Origin: Escherichia phage Rao1
Sequence record: PQ221054
Length of the DNA: 44,051 nt
Strand: one strand, 5' to 3'
Shown here in pieces: positions 4,108 to 21,308 of this stretch (within the stretch, counting starts at the first letter, position 1; the number at the start of each line of letters is the position of its first letter). The notes beneath the pieces were generated by a model. That model was given only the letters and a program-made list of their open reading frames with translations, searched no databases and was not told the origin of the DNA. The translations under genes and the position numbers were made by a program.

Positions 4108-4614
4108 ATGAATTGGCATGATATTTTTGAATATAGAGACGGGCTTTTAATAAGAAAGGTAAAAGTAGCAAATGTATCAAAGGTTGGAGAGGTGGCCGGA
4201 AGAGTTGATAAATTTGGCTATGTGATACTAAAGTATAGACAAAAAGCATACAGGTGTCACAGGGTGGTGTGGGAGATGCACAATGGAGCAATCCCTAAAG
4301 GCATGTACATAGATCACATAAACCAAAATAGAAGTGACAATAGAATAGAGAACTTAAGGTTAGTAAGCAATAAAGAGAACTCAAATAACAGATCACTATC
4401 ATCAAGAAATAAAAGCGGAATAAACGGTGTAAGCTGGTGCAAAAGAGAGAATAGATGGCTTGTTCAGGCTAGAGAGTTTGGTAAAACAGTCTTCATATGC
4501 TACAAGGACACTATAGAGGAGGCTGCATTGGCAAGGTCGCAGTATGACAAATTGAACGGATATCATGAAAATCATGGCTCTGAAAATAAAGGCTACCTAA
4601 ATACGAGAGCGTAA
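4108..4614 (+). CDS. HNH homing endonuclease with AP2-like DNA-binding domain
   Basis: IDHINQNRSDNRIENLRLVSNKEN HNH motif, then GINGVSW...W...EEA AP2-like segment. Paralogous to 10279..10875 and 20820..21308. Confidence 0.85.
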   Translation: MNWHDIFEYRDGLLIRKVKVANVSKVGEVAGRVDKFGYVILKYRQKAYRCHRVVWEMHNGAIPKGMYIDHINQNRSDNRIENLRLVSNKENSNNRSLSSRNKSGINGVSWCKRENRWLVQAREFGKTVFICYKDTIEEAALARSQYDKLNGYHENHGSENKGYLNTRA

Positions 4615-4616
4615 CA

Positions 4617-6188
4617 ATGAGTGAATTAATAGTCTGGGATGAACTGACTCACGCTGAAAAGATGGCTATAAAGGCAATCTCTGAGCATAGTTTCGAAGGG
4701 TTCTTGCGGTGCTTCTTTCAGATAACGCAAGGCGAGAGATTCAAAATGAATTGGCATGCTAAATACCTTTGTCGTGTCATAGATGAGATTCTTGATGGTA
4801 AGAGAAAGGATACCATCATAAACGTAGCTCCTGGATCAGCCAAAACCGAGCTCTTTAGTATACATTTCCCTGTATATAGCATGATCAAGATTAAGAAGGT
4901 TAGAAATCTTAGTTTGTCGTTCTCTGACTCATTGGTTAAGCGTAACTCAAAGCGTGTGCGCGACCTGATTAAGTCAAAGGAGTTTCAGGAACTTTGGCCT
5001 TGCTCATTTGGGACTTGCAGGGATGATGAGATTCAGGTTCTAGATGAAGATGGAAAGGTGAGGTTTGAATCGATATCTAAGGCAATGGCTGGACAGGTGA
5101 CTGGTTCGCGTGGTGGTTACATGACCGATGATTACAGTGGATGCATAATGCTTGATGACCCGCTGAAGCCAGATGATGCGCTTAGTAATGTAAGGAGGGA
5201 GGCTGTTAATATGCTTCTCAAGAACACAATTCGCTCACGAAGGGCGAGTTCAGTTAAGGGAAAAGAGACTCCAATATTAGCCGTTCAGCAAAGGCTTCAT
5301 GTTCTTGACACTAGTCACTTCATGGAGTCCGGGCAGATGGGGATAAAATTCGACGTAGTTAAAATTCCAGCAATAGTCACGGAAGAATACGCCGACACGC
5401 TTCCTGAATGGATTAGGCAGCAGTTTATAGATGACGTTCTTTCTTCGCCATTTGTAGAGCGCGATGGGGTTAAGTATTACAGCTACTTCCCAGCAAAGGA
5501 ATCAATAGAAGACTTGATAGCCATGCGTGATGCTGATCCTTACACATTCCTTAGTCAATATGCTCAGGAGCCTGTAGCTCTAGGTGGCAACCTGATTAAC
5601 GTAGACTGGCTCCAGCGCATTAGTGACACCCTGCGACCGCCAGCTAAGTACGATTACAGGTTCATGACGCTTGATACCGCGATGACCACTAAAAGCTACA
5701 GTGACTTTAGTGTACTGCAACTCTGGGGCTATAAGGATGGCAAGATTTACCTGTTAGACCAGCGACGTGGTAAATGGGAGGCGCCAGAGCTAGAGGCAGA
5801 GCTATTAGACTTCGAGAGGATGGCAAGGGCATCCAATCAGACAGATGGTATCCTTCGTAAAATCATCATCGAGAAGAAAGCATCTGGTATAGGTCTGATT
5901 CAATCAGCAGGAAGGGTTATGCGAACGCCTATCGAGCCATACGTGCCAGATAACGACAAGCTGACTCGCGTAATGAGTGCACTTCCTCAGATTAAGGCTG
6001 GCAACGTTATCCTGCCGGAGTCAGCAAATTGGCTTAACGGATTGCTAACAGAGATTGCAGCATTTACGGCAGATGATTCTCACTCGCACGATGACCAGAT
6101 AGACTGTTTGACGATGGCTGTCAACCTGGTACTGAACATCGCAGAAGACCCTAAAGCGAGAATGATGCGATTAGCAGGAATTAAATAA
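4617..6188 (+). CDS. terL: Terminase large subunit
   Basis: 523 aa; deviant Walker A region NVAPGSAKTE; acidic C-terminal nuclease-type region; followed by the portal gene. Confidence 0.9.
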   Translation: MSELIVWDELTHAEKMAIKAISEHSFEGFLRCFFQITQGERFKMNWHAKYLCRVIDEILDGKRKDTIINVAPGSAKTELFSIHFPVYSMIKIKKVRNLSLSFSDSLVKRNSKRVRDLIKSKEFQELWPCSFGTCRDDEIQVLDEDGKVRFESISKAMAGQVTGSRGGYMTDDYSGCIMLDDPLKPDDALSNVRREAVNMLLKNTIRSRRASSVKGKETPILAVQQRLHVLDTSHFMESGQMGIKFDVVKIPAIVTEEYADTLPEWIRQQFIDDVLSSPFVERDGVKYYSYFPAKESIEDLIAMRDADPYTFLSQYAQEPVALGGNLINVDWLQRISDTLRPPAKYDYRFMTLDTAMTTKSYSDFSVLQLWGYKDGKIYLLDQRRGKWEAPELEAELLDFERMARASNQTDGILRKIIIEKKASGIGLIQSAGRVMRTPIEPYVPDNDKLTRVMSALPQIKAGNVILPESANWLNGLLTEIAAFTADDSHSHDDQIDCLTMAVNLVLNIAEDPKARMMRLAGIK

Positions 6189-6200
6189 GCGTGATAAACT

Positions 6201-6225
6201 AGCCTCTTAAATGGGGCTTTTTTAT
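6201..6225 (+). terminator. Putative rho-independent terminator or attenuator
   Basis: AGCCTC...GGGGCT imperfect hairpin followed by TTTTTT. Confidence 0.45.
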
Positions 6226-6237
6226 TGGAGCAAGAAA

Positions 6238-19399: not shown

Positions 19400-19450
19400 A
19401 TATAAAACTCCTAATAGGATTTGTCAAATCTTAAAATCATAGAGGTGAAG

Positions 19451-20209
19451 ATGTTAACACCAAAAGTTAAACTGGAAATCTTCCAGCACGCAAAAGAAGT
19501 TTACCCGCACGAATGTTGCGGGGTTGTCACGCAGAAAGGTCGCGCGCAGAAATACCACAGAATCAAGAACGCCAGCAAAGACCCAGAGAATGAATTCATC
19601 CTTGATTCAAATGAGTATGCAGACGTTCTCTTTGAGTTGGCTCACAACGAGTCAATTGTTTATGTAGTTCACTCTCATACAGGCGATGGAGCCACAACAA
19701 GACCAAGCCCAGCGGACATTTGCAGCTGCAATGAGTGCGAGATTCCTTACGTTATCGTCAGCATTCCGGAAGGAGACATGCGGATCCTTGAACCTTCAAC
19801 CATGCCACTGATTGGTCGCCCATGGGGTCTTGGTAGCTTTGACTGCTGGGAGTTGGTAATGGCATTTCACAAGAAATACGGCGTCAAACTGAATGACTAC
19901 CGCGTTAATTACCCGTGGTGGGAGAAGCGATACAATGAGAATATCTATGAAGACAACTGGATTAAGGAAGGATTTGAGCTAGTAAAAACTTCAGATATTC
20001 CTATTGGCTCAATGATTATGATGCAGGTTCAAAGTGAGGTGACAAACCACGCCGGAATCTATATTGGCAACAACAGATTCATTCATCACCTTTATGGTAA
20101 AATGAGTTCAGTTGATATCTACTCCGATTACTGGCGAGAGCGCACTGTGCGAATCGTTCGCCATAAGGATTTACCAGAGGATGTAATTTATGACCCAGAA
20201 ACTGATTGA
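19451..20209 (+). CDS. Tail assembly protein (lambda K-like; JAB/MPN plus NlpC/P60 domains)
   Basis: JAMM-like HSHTGDGATTRPSPAD motif and Cys/His NlpC-P60-like region; GAGGTG RBS before the ATG at 19451. Confidence 0.75.
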   Translation: MLTPKVKLEIFQHAKEVYPHECCGVVTQKGRAQKYHRIKNASKDPENEFILDSNEYADVLFELAHNESIVYVVHSHTGDGATTRPSPADICSCNECEIPYVIVSIPEGDMRILEPSTMPLIGRPWGLGSFDCWELVMAFHKKYGVKLNDYRVNYPWWEKRYNENIYEDNWIKEGFELVKTSDIPIGSMIMMQVQSEVTNHAGIYIGNNRFIHHLYGKMSSVDIYSDYWRERTVRIVRHKDLPEDVIYDPETD

Positions 20210-20762
20210 TATTAAGTTAGGCTTGTCTCTAGGCCGCAAGTTTGGAAAGATTCACCAGATGGCAGTGAATAGCGTGCCAGAGGCTATGCGAGCGCTTTGC
20301 TCTCAGATTCCTGCATTCAAGGAGTTCATGAGCAGCCACGTTGGGCAGAACACAAGATACGCAGTCTTTGTAGATGGTAAAAATGTGAACGAGCATCAAA
20401 TCTCTGATTTTAGTGCCGTTCAGGAGATGCGCATCTTGCCAATCCCGCAAGGCCGAAAGTCCGGCGGTTTGTTTCAGACAATTTTAGGTGCAGCGCTTAT
20501 CACGGTTGGCATCTTCACTGGGCAGATTTATCTTGTTGGTGCTGGCGTATCTTTGGCAGCAGGTGGTATTGCCCAGCTACTCTCACCGCAGGCAACTGGA
20601 TTAAAGACCCAGAACAACCAAACAAGCAACAGAGCATCTTACGCATTTGGCTCCTCTGTAAACACGGTGGCTGCTGGTTATCCGGTTTGCCTTCCTTACG
20701 GCTATCGGACGGTTGGCGGGTCTGTATTTAGTGCAGGCAGTTATAGTGAAGATATTTCTTGA
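20190..20762 (+). CDS. Tail assembly protein (lambda I-like)
   Basis: Gene order after K; hydrophobic Gly-rich central segment; overlapping start. Confidence 0.65.
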   Translation: MTQKLIDIKLGLSLGRKFGKIHQMAVNSVPEAMRALCSQIPAFKEFMSSHVGQNTRYAVFVDGKNVNEHQISDFSAVQEMRILPIPQGRKSGGLFQTILGAALITVGIFTGQIYLVGAGVSLAAGGIAQLLSPQATGLKTQNNQTSNRASYAFGSSVNTVAAGYPVCLPYGYRTVGGSVFSAGSYSEDIS

Positions 20763-20819
20763 TAATTAAATTATTCTGCATTACAGTCACCTTAAGATTT
20801 ACTCTTTTGGTGACTTAAA

Positions 20820-21308
20820 ATGCAAAAATTCGAGAATTACCTTTACGAGATTGATGGAAAGCTATACTGGAAGGAGGCGAGAAACAACTCGGCCAAAATA
20901 GAGTCAGAGGCTGGATTTATTCATCATTCTGGCTATAGGTATGTTAAATTGAATGACAAACAGACTTCATCTCACAGGATTCTTTGGTACTTAAGAAATG
21001 GATTCAAGATGCCACCTAAAGGCATGGAGATTGACCATATAAATGGAAACAGGCTTGACAACTCAGCTAGTAACTTATGGATTGTATCTTCATCGGTAAA
21101 CTCAAAAAACAGGTCAAAAAGGTCAGATAACTCAAGCGGCGTTGCGGGAGTTGGATTTCATAAGTTAACTGGAACGTGGTGGGCTACGATATCAATAAAC
21201 AAAAAGAGAAAGCACTTGGGGCTATTCGTTGATTGGTTTGAAGCAGTGTGCGCCAGAAAGAGCGCTGAGAACTTAAATGGTGAGTACACCTATAGACATG
21301 GTAAGTAA
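20820..21308 (+). CDS. HNH homing endonuclease with AP2-like domain
   Basis: EIDHINGNRLDNSASNLWIVSSSVNSKN plus GVAGVGFHK...W...FEAV; inserted between the I-like and J-like genes. Confidence 0.85.
   Translation: MQKFENYLYEIDGKLYWKEARNNSAKIESEAGFIHHSGYRYVKLNDKQTSSHRILWYLRNGFKMPPKGMEIDHINGNRLDNSASNLWIVSSSVNSKNRSKRSDNSSGVAGVGFHKLTGTWWATISINKKRKHLGLFVDWFEAVCARKSAENLNGEYTYRHGK

What the first reader, a model, noticed from the sequence alone, without database searches (positions are those of the whole stretch)
4108..21308. Three paralogous HNH-AP2 homing endonuclease genes inserted beside terL, the major capsid gene and the J-like gene
ORFs 4108..4614, 10279..10875 and 20820..21308 share the same architecture (HNH motif IDHI(N/D)xN...N, then an AP2-like G(V/F)xGVx...W...EEA segment) and are clearly paralogs. 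Each sits next to a conserved essential structural gene (between terS and terL, after the capsid gene, between I and J), as expected for free-standing homing endonucleases that target conserved sequence. They are likely independently mobile and may affect outcomes of co-infection.
Basis: partly seen in the sequence, partly recalled or inferred. Interest (0 to 1): 0.55.

Follow-up and report, generated by a model that had tools for sequence, protein, structure and literature searches.

The report
Three homing endonuclease genes in coliphage
The three small genes are real, related HNH-type homing endonuclease genes (selfish mobile nuclease genes) sitting between essential packaging, head and tail genes of a T1-like coliphage; they are present or absent in close relatives exactly as expected, and both the gene family and these particular genes are already known and annotated, so the finding is correct but ordinary.

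Summary
ORFs 4108-4614 (H1), 10279-10875 (H2) and 20820-21308 (H3) are intact and 33-40% identical to each other. All three match Pfam HNH_3 and PHROG phrog_99, and all keep the catalytic D-H...N...N residues of I-HmuI. The C-terminal AP2 domain passes Pfam's threshold only in H2. It is sub-threshold in H1 and shown only by transitive homology in H3.

The window is a Drexlerviridae/Braunvirinae (Christensenvirus-like) phage. Each site is polymorphic among relatives:
- terS|terL is empty in DTL, SU57, phiA2-1 and ZL19.
- MCP|next gene is filled only in TR2, TR3 and CY1.
- I|J is filled only in ZL19, IME253, phiA2-1 and Sd1.

Short flank tracts travel with the genes: 103 nt of the capsid gene 3' end with H2, and about 45 nt of the gene I 3' end with H3. 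That pattern is the signature of homing.

In this genome, however, H3 arrived inside a ~12-kb tail-module swap from a ZL19-like phage, not by a local homing event. It also carries a unique R87W change in the near-invariant NLR box.

The same proteins occur at 99-100% identity in GenBank phages, annotated as HNH or homing endonucleases.

The parts
4108..4614 (+). H1: free-standing HNH_3 + AP2-like endonuclease gene (168 aa) between terS and terL
   Evidence: Pfam HNH_3 4e-22; phrog_99 5.5e-57; aligns end to end with I-HmuI 1U3E; AP2 sub-threshold at 16-19 bits; 99.4-100% identical in TR1, TR2, TR3 and CY1.
4042..4604 (+). H1 cassette: 563 nt present here, where HEG-less relatives (DTL, phiA2-1) have only a 19-nt terS-terL spacer
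   Evidence: BLASTN and MAFFT junction alignments; GC 38.0% against 45-47% in the flanks.
4040..4102 (+). H1 leader with a predicted hairpin that pairs the GAGGTG Shine-Dalgarno; the leader is 92.6% identical to that of Rtp rtp20, although the ORF body is only 42% aa identical
   Evidence: Fold z = -1.9, which is weak; leader versus body identities.
10279..10875 (+). H2: HNH_3 + AP2 endonuclease gene (198 aa; alternative ATG at 10267) downstream of the major capsid gene
   Evidence: Pfam HNH_3 3e-13 and AP2 9e-9, above the gathering score; phrog_99 4.9e-55; weak matches to PDB AP2/ERF chains and to I-HmuI; 99.5% identical only in TR2, TR3 and CY1.
10210..10858 (+). H2 cassette: 649 nt that replace the 44-54 nt (native terminator plus -35 region) found in the HEG-less TR1, IME542 and phiA2-1
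   Evidence: GC 41.0%.
10105..10207 (+). Divergent tract at the capsid gene 3' end that is linked to H2 (candidate co-conversion tract or target-site variant)
   Evidence: Window versus HEG-less TR1: 2 mismatches in 9263-10104, then 28 mismatches (6 aa changes) in 10105-10207. In this tract TR1 and IME542, both HEG-less, resemble each other.
10228..10278 (+). H2 leader: an intrinsic terminator (10228-10247 plus T-run) followed by a hairpin (10248-10278) that pairs the GGAGG Shine-Dalgarno
   Evidence: Terminator scan; fold -24.1 kcal/mol, z = -6.1.
10847..10876 (+). Promoter-like site (TTCACG-18-TATAAT with TG) overlapping the H2 stop. Its -10 is the native -10 of the downstream operon in HEG-less relatives
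20820..21308 (+). H3: HNH_3 + AP2-like endonuclease gene (162 aa) between the tail genes I and J
   Evidence: Pfam HNH_3 1.8e-12; phrog_99 1.5e-52; C-terminal domain homologous to the family's AP2-like domain; 99.4% identical in ZL19, IME253 and phiA2-1, 88% in Sd1; dN/dS against Sd1 0.038.
20717..21315 (+). H3 cassette including the last ~45 nt of gene I. It is inserted between the end of I and I's intrinsic terminator; HEG-less relatives have 9 nt here
   Evidence: Gene I minus its last 60 nt is 99.0% identical to HEG-less OzMSK and 64.4% to HEG+ Sd1. The last 30 nt are 73.3% and 96.7% identical respectively.
20777..20824 (+). H3 leader hairpin that pairs both the GGTGA Shine-Dalgarno and the AUG. 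The stems are identical in Sd1 and the differences lie in the loop
   Evidence: Fold -20.1 kcal/mol, z = -5.0; alignment.
21078..21080 (+). Codon 87 of H3: TGG (Trp) here, CGG (Arg) in ZL19 and phiA2-1. It falls in the near-invariant N-L-R box of the HNH_3 motif
   Evidence: Nucleotide mismatch at 21078; R is present in 12 of 13 aligned family members and in I-HmuI (R89).
21313..21335 (+). Intrinsic terminator of gene I, now located downstream of H3; it is conserved in HEG-less relatives
17121..29140 (.). Recombinant block about 100% identical to ZL19/phiA2-1, set in a backbone otherwise 99.8-100% identical to CY1/TR2. It carries H3, the Rha gene, J and the downstream genes
   Evidence: Sliding identity and block maps.
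27778..29927 (+). Phage-encoded exonuclease, ERF-type recombinase and SSB: the likely repair machinery for a homing break (inferred role)
   Evidence: ORFs 27778-28743, 28817-29467 and 29508-29927; the collinear genes are annotated exonuclease / recombinase (ERF family) / SSB in TR2, CY1, phiA2-1 and ZL19.

Best explanation
H1, H2 and H3 are three free-standing homing endonuclease genes of the HNH_3 ('HNN')-AP2 family. This is His-Me finger group 2, the I-HmuI catalytic type. Each occupies its own intergenic slot in the late-gene region of a T1-like (Drexlerviridae, Braunvirinae) coliphage.

Inferred mechanism:
1. In a cell co-infected with a relative that lacks the gene, the C-terminal AP2-like domain and the N-terminal beta domain bind a specific site at or near the empty slot. 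That site probably lies in the 3' end of the adjacent conserved gene or in the intergenic terminator.
2. The single-metal beta-beta-alpha site (D-H...N...N) nicks or cuts the DNA.
3. The phage's own exonuclease, ERF recombinase and SSB repair the break from the endonuclease-carrying genome. This copies the gene together with tens to hundreds of bases of flank.

What is shown here: family membership, intact catalytic residues, presence/absence polymorphism at all three slots, flank tracts that travel with H2 and H3, and purifying selection on H3.

What is inferred: cleavage activity, target sites, nick versus double-strand cut, and control of expression by hairpins that sequester the ribosome-binding site.

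In this particular genome H1 and H2 were inherited with the CY1/TR2-like backbone. H3 came in with a 12-kb ZL19-like tail module.
For: - Domains and family.
- Catalytic residues aligned to I-HmuI 1U3E.
- Polymorphism at terS|terL: 10 of the 60 listed records carry an insert and the rest are empty. Rtp holds a different endonuclease (42% aa) behind a near-identical leader.
- Polymorphism at MCP|next gene: filled only in TR2, TR3 and CY1; empty in TR1, IME542 and phiA2-1 among others.
- Polymorphism at I|J: filled only in ZL19, IME253, phiA2-1 and Sd1; empty in OzMSK, Rtp, TR1, TR2, CY1 and others.
- Flank tracts that follow the gene rather than the host phylogeny.
- H3 dN/dS of 0.038, as low as the neighbouring tail genes.
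- Low GC of all three cassettes (38-41% against 45-48%).
- Close relatives carry further members of the same family in four other slots that are empty here (TMP|M, exonuclease|recombinase, recombinase|SSB, regulator|primase).
- Literature: HNH-AP2 is a recognised homing endonuclease family and multiple copies were noted in T1, Rtp and T5 (PMC2248197, PMC5714182, PMC10448857).
Against: - No cleavage assay or target site exists for these proteins or for any close homolog that I could find.
- AP2 is directly detectable only in H2.
- H3 in this genome carries R87W in a near-invariant box and may be impaired.
- H3's arrival here is explained by a large module swap, not by its own activity.
- dS between the window and Sd1 copies of H3 is saturated and similar to that of the flanks. 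There is therefore no sign of recent transfer between those lineages.
- The structure prediction for H3 was too poor to test the fold (pLDDT 47).
Confidence: 0.88

Rival explanations
1. The genes are passengers or decaying relics. They belong to the homing endonuclease family but no longer cut. Their patchy distribution would then reflect ordinary modular recombination and deletion, not their own activity.
For: H3 entered this genome inside a 12-kb block swap. This copy has R87W in the N-L-R box. The Xanthomonas phage study describes progressive degeneration of HNN-AP2 genes after fixation (PMC2248197). TR1 carries a truncated 124-aa family member.
Against: All three ORFs are full length with invariant catalytic residues. 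H3 is under strong purifying selection (dN/dS 0.038). Short flank tracts (45 and 103 nt) that track the gene are hard to obtain from random module exchange.
Confidence: 0.12
2. H1 is not selfish. It would be a terminase-associated HNH packaging cofactor of the HK97 gp74 type, needed by terS/terL to cut concatemers.
For: Its position between terS and terL, with its stop codon 2 nt before the terL start. HNH genes next to terminase genes are a known packaging component in cos phages (PMC3592412 abstract).
Against: - Relatives whose aligned terS-terL junction region is about 80% identical overall (terL about 86.5%, terS about 70% for DTL), such as DTL, SU57 and SCS31, lack any gene there. So do ZL19, phiA2-1 and the 12210I group.
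- H1 matches HNH_3, not the PF01844 type. It has no CxxC zinc dyads (sequence), whereas packaging HNH proteins have [CxxC]2 (PMC3592412).
- terS is of the P22 gp3 type, and the TR1 record notes headful packaging.
- H1 is homologous over its full length to H2 and H3, which sit elsewhere.
Confidence: 0.04
3. The proteins act mainly as sequence-specific DNA-binding regulators or as inter-phage competition factors through the AP2 domain, with the nuclease secondary. Examples would be repression of neighbouring late genes or exclusion of competitors without homing.
For: AP2 domains have been co-opted as regulators in phages and plants (10.64898/2026.02.23.707548; PMC10448857). The CY1 record calls the H2 ortholog 'DNA-binding protein'. 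Purifying selection on H3 would also fit a function useful to the host phage.
Against: The catalytic D-H...N...N residues are invariant across 13 family members. The genes are dispensable in close relatives. No regulator-like conservation of position is seen.
Confidence: 0.04

Closest known systems
I-HmuI (Bacillus phage SPO1 intron-encoded HNH homing endonuclease, PDB 1U3E; Pfam HNH_3, His-Me finger group 2)
   Same: The N-terminal beta domain and the HNH_3 catalytic core align end to end. The family profile matches 1U3E at E 1.2e-10, with D74, H75, N87 and N96 conserved.
   Different: I-HmuI is encoded within an intron and its C-terminal DNA-binding part differs (not AP2; my recollection is a helix plus helix-turn-helix). 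The genes here are free-standing and carry an AP2-like C-terminal domain. I-HmuI is a nickase (my recollection of Shen et al. 2004, cited in PMC5714182). Whether H1-H3 nick or cut both strands is unknown.
HNN/HNH-AP2 free-standing endonucleases of phages (Magnani et al. 2004 family; Xanthomonas phages Xp10/OP1/Xop411; 'IPA-HNH' HEGs of Vibrio phage ICP1)
   Same: The architecture is the same: N-terminal HNH without zinc dyads, conserved DNR / NLR / EN boxes, and C-terminal AP2. They also occur in several copies per genome at variable positions near essential genes (PMC2248197, PMC10448857).
   Different: The host phage lineage differs. The ICP1 IPA-HNH domains are too divergent for the Pfam HNH_3 model, whereas H1-H3 match it strongly.
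Orthologs already in GenBank: TR1/TR2/TR3/CY1 'HNH endonuclease' (H1, H2); ZL19/IME253 'homing endonuclease', phiA2-1 'endonuclease' and Sd1 gp29 'HNH homing endonuclease' (H3); Rtp rtp20 at the terS|terL slot
   Same: 99.4-100% protein identity at the same genomic positions. Rtp rtp20 occupies the same slot behind a 92.6% identical leader.
   Different: The window combines H1 and H2 (CY1/TR2 backbone) with H3 (ZL19 module), a combination not seen in any record searched. The window's H3 has R87W. Rtp rtp20 is only 42% identical to H1 in protein sequence.
T4-type free-standing homing endonucleases (Seg and Mob families) and their marker exclusion
   Same: They are intergenic, lie next to conserved genes, are polymorphic between relatives and co-convert flanks. 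Regulation of the endonuclease by RBS-sequestering hairpins is described for T4 (from my own knowledge, not checked here), and similar hairpins are predicted upstream of H2 and H3.
   Different: Seg proteins are GIY-YIG enzymes. Mob proteins are HNH with zinc fingers, not AP2 (PMC10448857). No experimental marker exclusion data exist for this phage group.

Membership tests
HNH_3 / His-Me finger group 2 homing endonucleases (I-HmuI type) | Significant match to Pfam PF13392 above the gathering score | tested here: met
   78, 49.6 and 47.1 bits against a cut-off of 24.8 for H1, H2 and H3.
HNH_3 / His-Me finger group 2 homing endonucleases (I-HmuI type) | Catalytic Asp-His, structural Asn and metal-binding Asn of the beta-beta-alpha-Me motif (I-HmuI D74, H75, N87, N96) | tested here: met
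   Invariant in all three and in 13 of 13 family members; aligned to 1U3E. Caveat: H3 here has W instead of the near-invariant R after N-L (I-HmuI R89).
HNH_3 / His-Me finger group 2 homing endonucleases (I-HmuI type) | Site-specific endonuclease activity on a cognate empty site | not testable with these tools
   This needs in vitro cleavage of the DTL/SU57, TR1/IME542 and OzMSK/Rtp junction DNA.
HNH-AP2 homing endonuclease family (Magnani et al. 2004) | C-terminal AP2 DNA-binding domain (Pfam PF00847) | tested here: inconclusive
   - H2 is met (35.9-37.8 bits against a cut-off of 33.3).
- H1 is sub-threshold (16-19 bits).
- H3 has no direct hit.
- 7 of 13 family members hit AP2 at E <= 0.1.
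- For the C-terminal region the family profile finds AP2/ERF chains in the PDB, but only weakly (E 0.03-0.7).
- The H3 C-terminal domain is homologous to that of the other members (46 bits).
- The fold test failed (pLDDT 47).
Free-standing homing endonuclease genes (behavioural definition) | Presence/absence polymorphism at a fixed site between otherwise collinear relatives | tested here: met
   Met at all three sites.
Free-standing homing endonuclease genes (behavioural definition) | Flanking sequence co-inherited with the gene against the phylogeny of the host gene (co-conversion) | tested here: met
   - H3: the last 30 nt of gene I are 96.7% identical to Sd1 and 73.3% to OzMSK. The rest of the gene is 64.4% and 99.0% identical respectively.
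- H2: 28 mismatches in the last 103 nt of MCP against 2 in the preceding 842 nt, compared with TR1.
- H1: not testable, because no close HEG-less relative was found.
Free-standing homing endonuclease genes (behavioural definition) | Super-Mendelian inheritance in mixed infection | not testable with these tools
   This requires phage crosses.
Terminase-associated HNH packaging proteins (HK97 gp74 type) | HNH domain with [CxxC]2 zinc site, conserved next to the terminase genes in all relatives with that terminase | tested here: not met
   H1 has no CxxC dyads and matches HNH_3, not PF01844. The gene is absent from DTL, SU57, SCS31, ZL19, phiA2-1 and many others that have homologous terS/terL.

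The most novel reading that the evidence does not exclude
In Braunvirinae phages the endonuclease slots may act as the preferred breakpoints of modular exchange. If so, breaks made by these enzymes would drive swaps of whole functional modules, including the 12-kb tail-tip/host-range block seen here.

Observations that point this way:
- The window's ZL19-like block starts 536 nt upstream of the TMP|M slot. It ends within about 330 nt of the exonuclease|recombinase and recombinase|SSB slots.
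- The TR1/window identity breakpoints lie 105 nt from the H2 slot and about 40 nt from the regulator|primase slot.
- TR2 differs from the window by a diverged primase block of about 1 kb that abuts a TR2-only endonuclease gene.

A secondary point is that the RBS/AUG-sequestering leader hairpins of H2 and H3 may time endonuclease expression.
Probability: 0.3. Interest if true: 0.35.

Novelty: already known. Interest (0 to 1): 0.15.

Why it matters
It matters little beyond correct annotation. The HNH-AP2 homing endonuclease family, its multiplicity in T1-, Rtp- and T5-like phages and its position next to essential genes are all published. These very proteins are deposited at 99-100% identity and annotated as HNH or homing endonucleases.

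The practical value is threefold:
- The three genes, and the flank tracts linked to them, should be excluded from phylogenies of terL, the capsid gene and J.
- The empty-site alleles identified here (DTL/SU57, TR1/IME542, OzMSK/Rtp) are ready-made substrates for anyone who wants to characterise a coliphage HNH-AP2 enzyme.
- The clade is a compact natural data set for asking whether endonuclease slots mark recombination boundaries.

Tried and rejected
- **Structure test of the AP2 fold in H3.** I ran AlphaFold2 with a 3-sequence alignment. The model had mean pLDDT 47.4 and pTM 0.38, so no fold search was run.
- **NCBIfam.** No family matched any of the three proteins.
- **Recent transfer of H3 between the ZL19 and Sd1 lineages.** I rejected this. 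dS is saturated (about 2.1) and similar to that of J (1.9). Only the short tract at the 3' end of gene I is incongruent.
- **H3 acquired here by a local homing event.** I rejected this. The high-identity tract with ZL19/phiA2-1 spans about 12 kb.
- **Recent intragenomic duplication ('paralogs').** I rejected this. Identity among the three is 33-40%, and H1 and H3 have closer non-orthologous relatives in other phages.
- **Terminase-cofactor role for H1.** I rejected this; see the membership test.
- **Closer HEG-less allele for site 1.** The best found is only about 80% identical (DTL, SU57), so a co-conversion tract could not be assessed for H1.
- **Fourth copy or another nuclease family in the window.** tblastn found none. 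The other 'inserted' gene, at 18857-19399 on the minus strand, is a Rha-family regulator and not a nuclease.
- **A failed search call.** One literature search failed on a term that was too short and was repeated.

Full report
**What the window is.** Megablast of 3000-23000 finds 115 phage records, nearly all Escherichia siphoviruses of Drexlerviridae. The closest are TR2 (OP251154) and CY1 (OQ357823), both classed as Braunvirinae, Christensenvirus. Gene order is the usual T1/Rtp-like late region:
- terS 3515-4039 (Pfam GP3_package)
- terL 4617-6188
- portal, protease and scaffold genes
- major capsid 9263-10207
- head-tail and tail genes, then tape measure 14678-17656
- the M, L, K, I tail genes (I at 20190-20762, Lambda_tail_I)
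- J-like 21350-24706

**Check of the observation.** The three ORFs are present as described.
- All match Pfam HNH_3 well above the gathering score. All have phrog_99 'HNH endonuclease' as best PHROG over nearly their whole length.
- They are 33-40% identical pairwise (E 1e-12 to 1e-24), and tblastn finds no fourth copy in the window.
- I aligned 13 members of the family: the three here plus those of TR1, TR2, phiA2-1, Rtp and Sd1. The Asp-His pair and the Asn residues of the beta-beta-alpha-metal motif are invariant. They align with D74, H75, N87 and N96 of the SPO1 homing endonuclease I-HmuI. The family profile matches I-HmuI at E 1.2e-10.
- The AP2 claim is direct only for H2 (35.9-37.8 bits against a cut-off of 33.3). 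H1 is sub-threshold and H3 has no Pfam hit.
- The H3 C-terminal domain alone scores 46 bits against a profile of the other members' C-terminal domains. Seven of the 13 members hit AP2. The PDB chains the family profile finds for that region are AP2/ERF proteins, but weakly. I accept 'AP2-like' for all three. For H3 this rests on transitive homology, because the structure model was too poor to test the fold (pLDDT 47).

**Presence/absence.** I searched 'empty-site' models, made by joining the flanks with the gene removed, against 50,697 phage records.

*Site 1 (terS|terL).*
- TR1, TR2, TR3 and CY1 carry H1.
- Rtp, FP, 2725-N35 and BEK2/3 carry an insert of similar size.
- DTL, SU57, SCS31, IME542, OzMSK and the large 12210I group have terS and terL adjacent. 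So do phiA2-1 and ZL19.
- In the HEG-less DTL and phiA2-1 the spacer is 19 nt. Here 563 nt (4042-4604) fill it.
- Rtp's rtp20 sits behind a leader 92.6% identical to H1's and shares the first codons. Its body is only 42% identical in protein sequence. Different endonuclease alleles therefore occupy one slot.

*Site 2 (capsid|DUF7444 gene).*
- Only TR2, TR3 and CY1 carry H2.
- TR1, IME542, phiA2-1 and most others have a terminator and a promoter there.
- Here 649 nt (10210-10858) replace 44-54 nt. The cassette brings a different terminator and re-uses the native -10 at the H2 stop codon.

*Site 3 (I|J).*
- Only ZL19, IME253, phiA2-1 and the Rogunavirinae phage Sd1 carry H3.
- OzMSK, Rtp, TR1, TR2, CY1 and more than 100 others have 9 nt between the I stop codon and its terminator.

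The three genes thus have three different phyletic patterns.

**Signs of homing.**
- *H2.* Against HEG-less TR1, the capsid gene has 2 mismatches in 9263-10104 and then 28 in the last 103 nt, causing six amino-acid changes. In that tract the two HEG-less alleles (TR1 and IME542) resemble each other.
- *H3.* Gene I without its last 60 nt is 99.0% identical to HEG-less OzMSK and 64.4% to HEG-carrying Sd1. In the last 30 nt this reverses to 73.3% and 96.7%. A short piece of the neighbouring essential gene therefore travels with each endonuclease gene. This fits co-conversion, or a linked cleavage-resistant target variant.
- *Composition.* All three cassettes are AT-rich relative to their flanks (38-41% against 45-48% GC).
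- *Selection.* H3 is under purifying selection (dN/dS 0.038 against Sd1, compared with 0.063 for I and 0.054 for J). dS is saturated, so this says nothing about recent transfer.

**How the genes got into this genome.**
- Sliding identity shows the window is 99.8-100% identical to CY1 across 1-17,040 and 29,321-44,051. Two short patches near 11.2-11.3 kb and 11.7-11.8 kb fall slightly below this.
- Positions 17,121 to about 29,140 are about 100% identical to ZL19/phiA2-1.
- H1 and H2 therefore belong to the backbone. H3 arrived with a ~12-kb tail-tip module that also brings a Rha gene, J and the downstream genes. It was not a local homing event.
- The H3 copy here differs from those of ZL19 and phiA2-1 by one substitution, C to T at 21078. 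IME253 shows the same 99.4% protein identity. The change puts Trp in place of the Arg of the N-L-R box. That Arg is present in the other 12 aligned family members and in I-HmuI. The N-L-R(E) box was noted as conserved in HNN-AP2 enzymes (PMC2248197). The effect of the change is unknown.

**Expression signals (inference).**
- H1 lies in line between terS and terL, and its stop codon is 2 nt before the terL ATG.
- H2 lies between a terminator and the downstream promoter.
- H3 lies between the I stop codon and the I terminator.
- Predicted leader hairpins pair the Shine-Dalgarno of H2 (z = -6.1) and both the Shine-Dalgarno and the AUG of H3 (z = -5.0). The H1 hairpin is weak (z = -1.9).
- The H3 stems are unchanged in Sd1, and its differences lie in the loop. 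That is conservation, not covariation.
- Such RBS-sequestering hairpins are described for T4 endonuclease genes. I recall this from my own knowledge and did not test it here.

**Mechanism.** The best-supported reading is classical homing.
1. The AP2-like and N-terminal domains recognise a site at the empty slot.
2. The His-Me site nicks or cuts it.
3. The phage's own exonuclease, ERF recombinase and SSB (27778-29927) repair the break from the filled allele. These functions are assigned from the collinear annotations.

No step of cleavage or biased inheritance was or could be tested here.

**Rivals.**
- *Terminase-cofactor role for H1.* This fails its membership test. H1 has no CxxC zinc dyads and matches HNH_3 rather than PF01844. 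The gene is absent from relatives with homologous terminases, and the terS is of the headful P22 gp3 type (PMC3592412).
- *Dead relic.* This cannot be excluded for H3-W87, but it is disfavoured by intact motifs and purifying selection.
- *Regulator-only role.* This is disfavoured by the invariant catalytic residues.

**Comparison with what is known.**
- HNH_3 with AP2 is listed as a standard homing endonuclease architecture in the His-Me finger classification (PMC5714182).
- The HNH-AP2 family was defined by Magnani et al. 2004, as cited in PMC10448857 and PMC2248197.
- Multiple copies in T1, Rtp and T5 were noted in 2007 (PMC2248197).
- Clustering of such genes next to essential genes and at the boundaries of genetic exchange was described for ICP1-like and other phages (PMC10448857).
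- The BASEL phage-collection study avoided genome regions 'infested with homing endonucleases' when building its phylogenies (PMC8594841).
- The same proteins are deposited at 99-100% identity and annotated 'HNH endonuclease' or 'homing endonuclease'.
- The family is very common. tblastn hits at E <= 1e-5 occur in 1,711-3,313 of the 50,697 phage records.

**Verdict.** The finding is already known and its interest is low. The only mildly new angle is that endonuclease slots in this clade lie close to several recombination breakpoints. I did not test this statistically.

Noticed in passing
window 18857-19399 (- strand): A Rha-family gene (Pfam Phage_pRha + ORF11CD3; phrog_518) lies antisense between the tail genes L (18065-18832) and K (19421-20209). 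It has its own near-consensus promoter (19427-19399, 11 of 12 matches) and terminator (18852-18837). It is present in ZL19 and phiA2-1. It is absent from TR1 and OzMSK, where L and K are adjacent, and a small + strand ORF takes its place in TR2 and CY1. It is a second kind of polymorphic insert in the tail operon.
   Followed up: partly
window 17121-29140: The genome is a recombinant. Its backbone is 99.8-100% identical to CY1/TR2. A ~12-kb block is about 100% identical to ZL19/phiA2-1. The block runs from the tape-measure 3' end through M, L, Rha, K, I, H3, J and two downstream genes, then through a region with a Rha-like gene and the exonuclease, into the recombinase. It is probably a host-range module swap.
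   Followed up: yes
window 21078 (codon 87 of H3): A unique C-to-T change gives Arg87Trp in the near-invariant N-L-R box of the HNH_3 motif. ZL19, phiA2-1, Sd1, I-HmuI and all 12 other aligned family members have Arg.
   Followed up: partly
window 31493-32548 (primase gene 31540-32463, - strand) and the 32463-32504 spacer: TR2 is otherwise about 100% identical to the window here, but it diverges to about 69-73% over the whole primase gene. The diverged block abuts an HNH gene that TR2, TR1 and phiA2-1 carry in the regulator|primase slot and that the window and CY1 lack. This looks like a ~1-kb conversion tract linked to an endonuclease.
   Followed up: partly
window 17657-17686, 28744-28816, 29468-29507, 32464-32503: Four intergenic slots are empty here but hold members of the same HNH family in relatives:
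- TMP|M is filled in TR1 and phiA2-1.
- exonuclease|recombinase is filled in TR1 and TR2.
- recombinase|SSB is filled in TR1 by a truncated 124-aa copy.
- regulator|primase is filled in TR1, TR2 and phiA2-1.
This gives at least seven slots in the clade.
   Followed up: partly
window 20777-20824 and 10248-10278: Stable predicted hairpins lie in the leaders of H3 and H2. They pair the Shine-Dalgarno and, for H3, also the AUG (z = -5.0 and -6.1). The H3 stems are identical in Sd1 and the changes lie only in the loop. They may control translation of the endonucleases.
   Followed up: partly
window 3118-3193 (+): tRNA-Arg (anticodon CCT) lies upstream of terS. It is also annotated in TR1 and TR2.
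   Followed up: no
window 26297-26968 (- strand): A second protein with a Phage_pRha domain (223 aa) lies in the early region. The collinear genes are annotated 'KilA protein' in CY1 and phiA2-1.
   Followed up: no
L009 (Rtp) 1978-2072 versus window 4040-4137: Rtp rtp20 and H1 share a nearly identical leader and first ~10 codons (92.6% and 86.7% nt identity). The rest of the ORF is about 50% identical in nucleotides and 42% in protein. This suggests that endonuclease alleles are replaced at one slot through a conserved 5' segment.
   Followed up: partly
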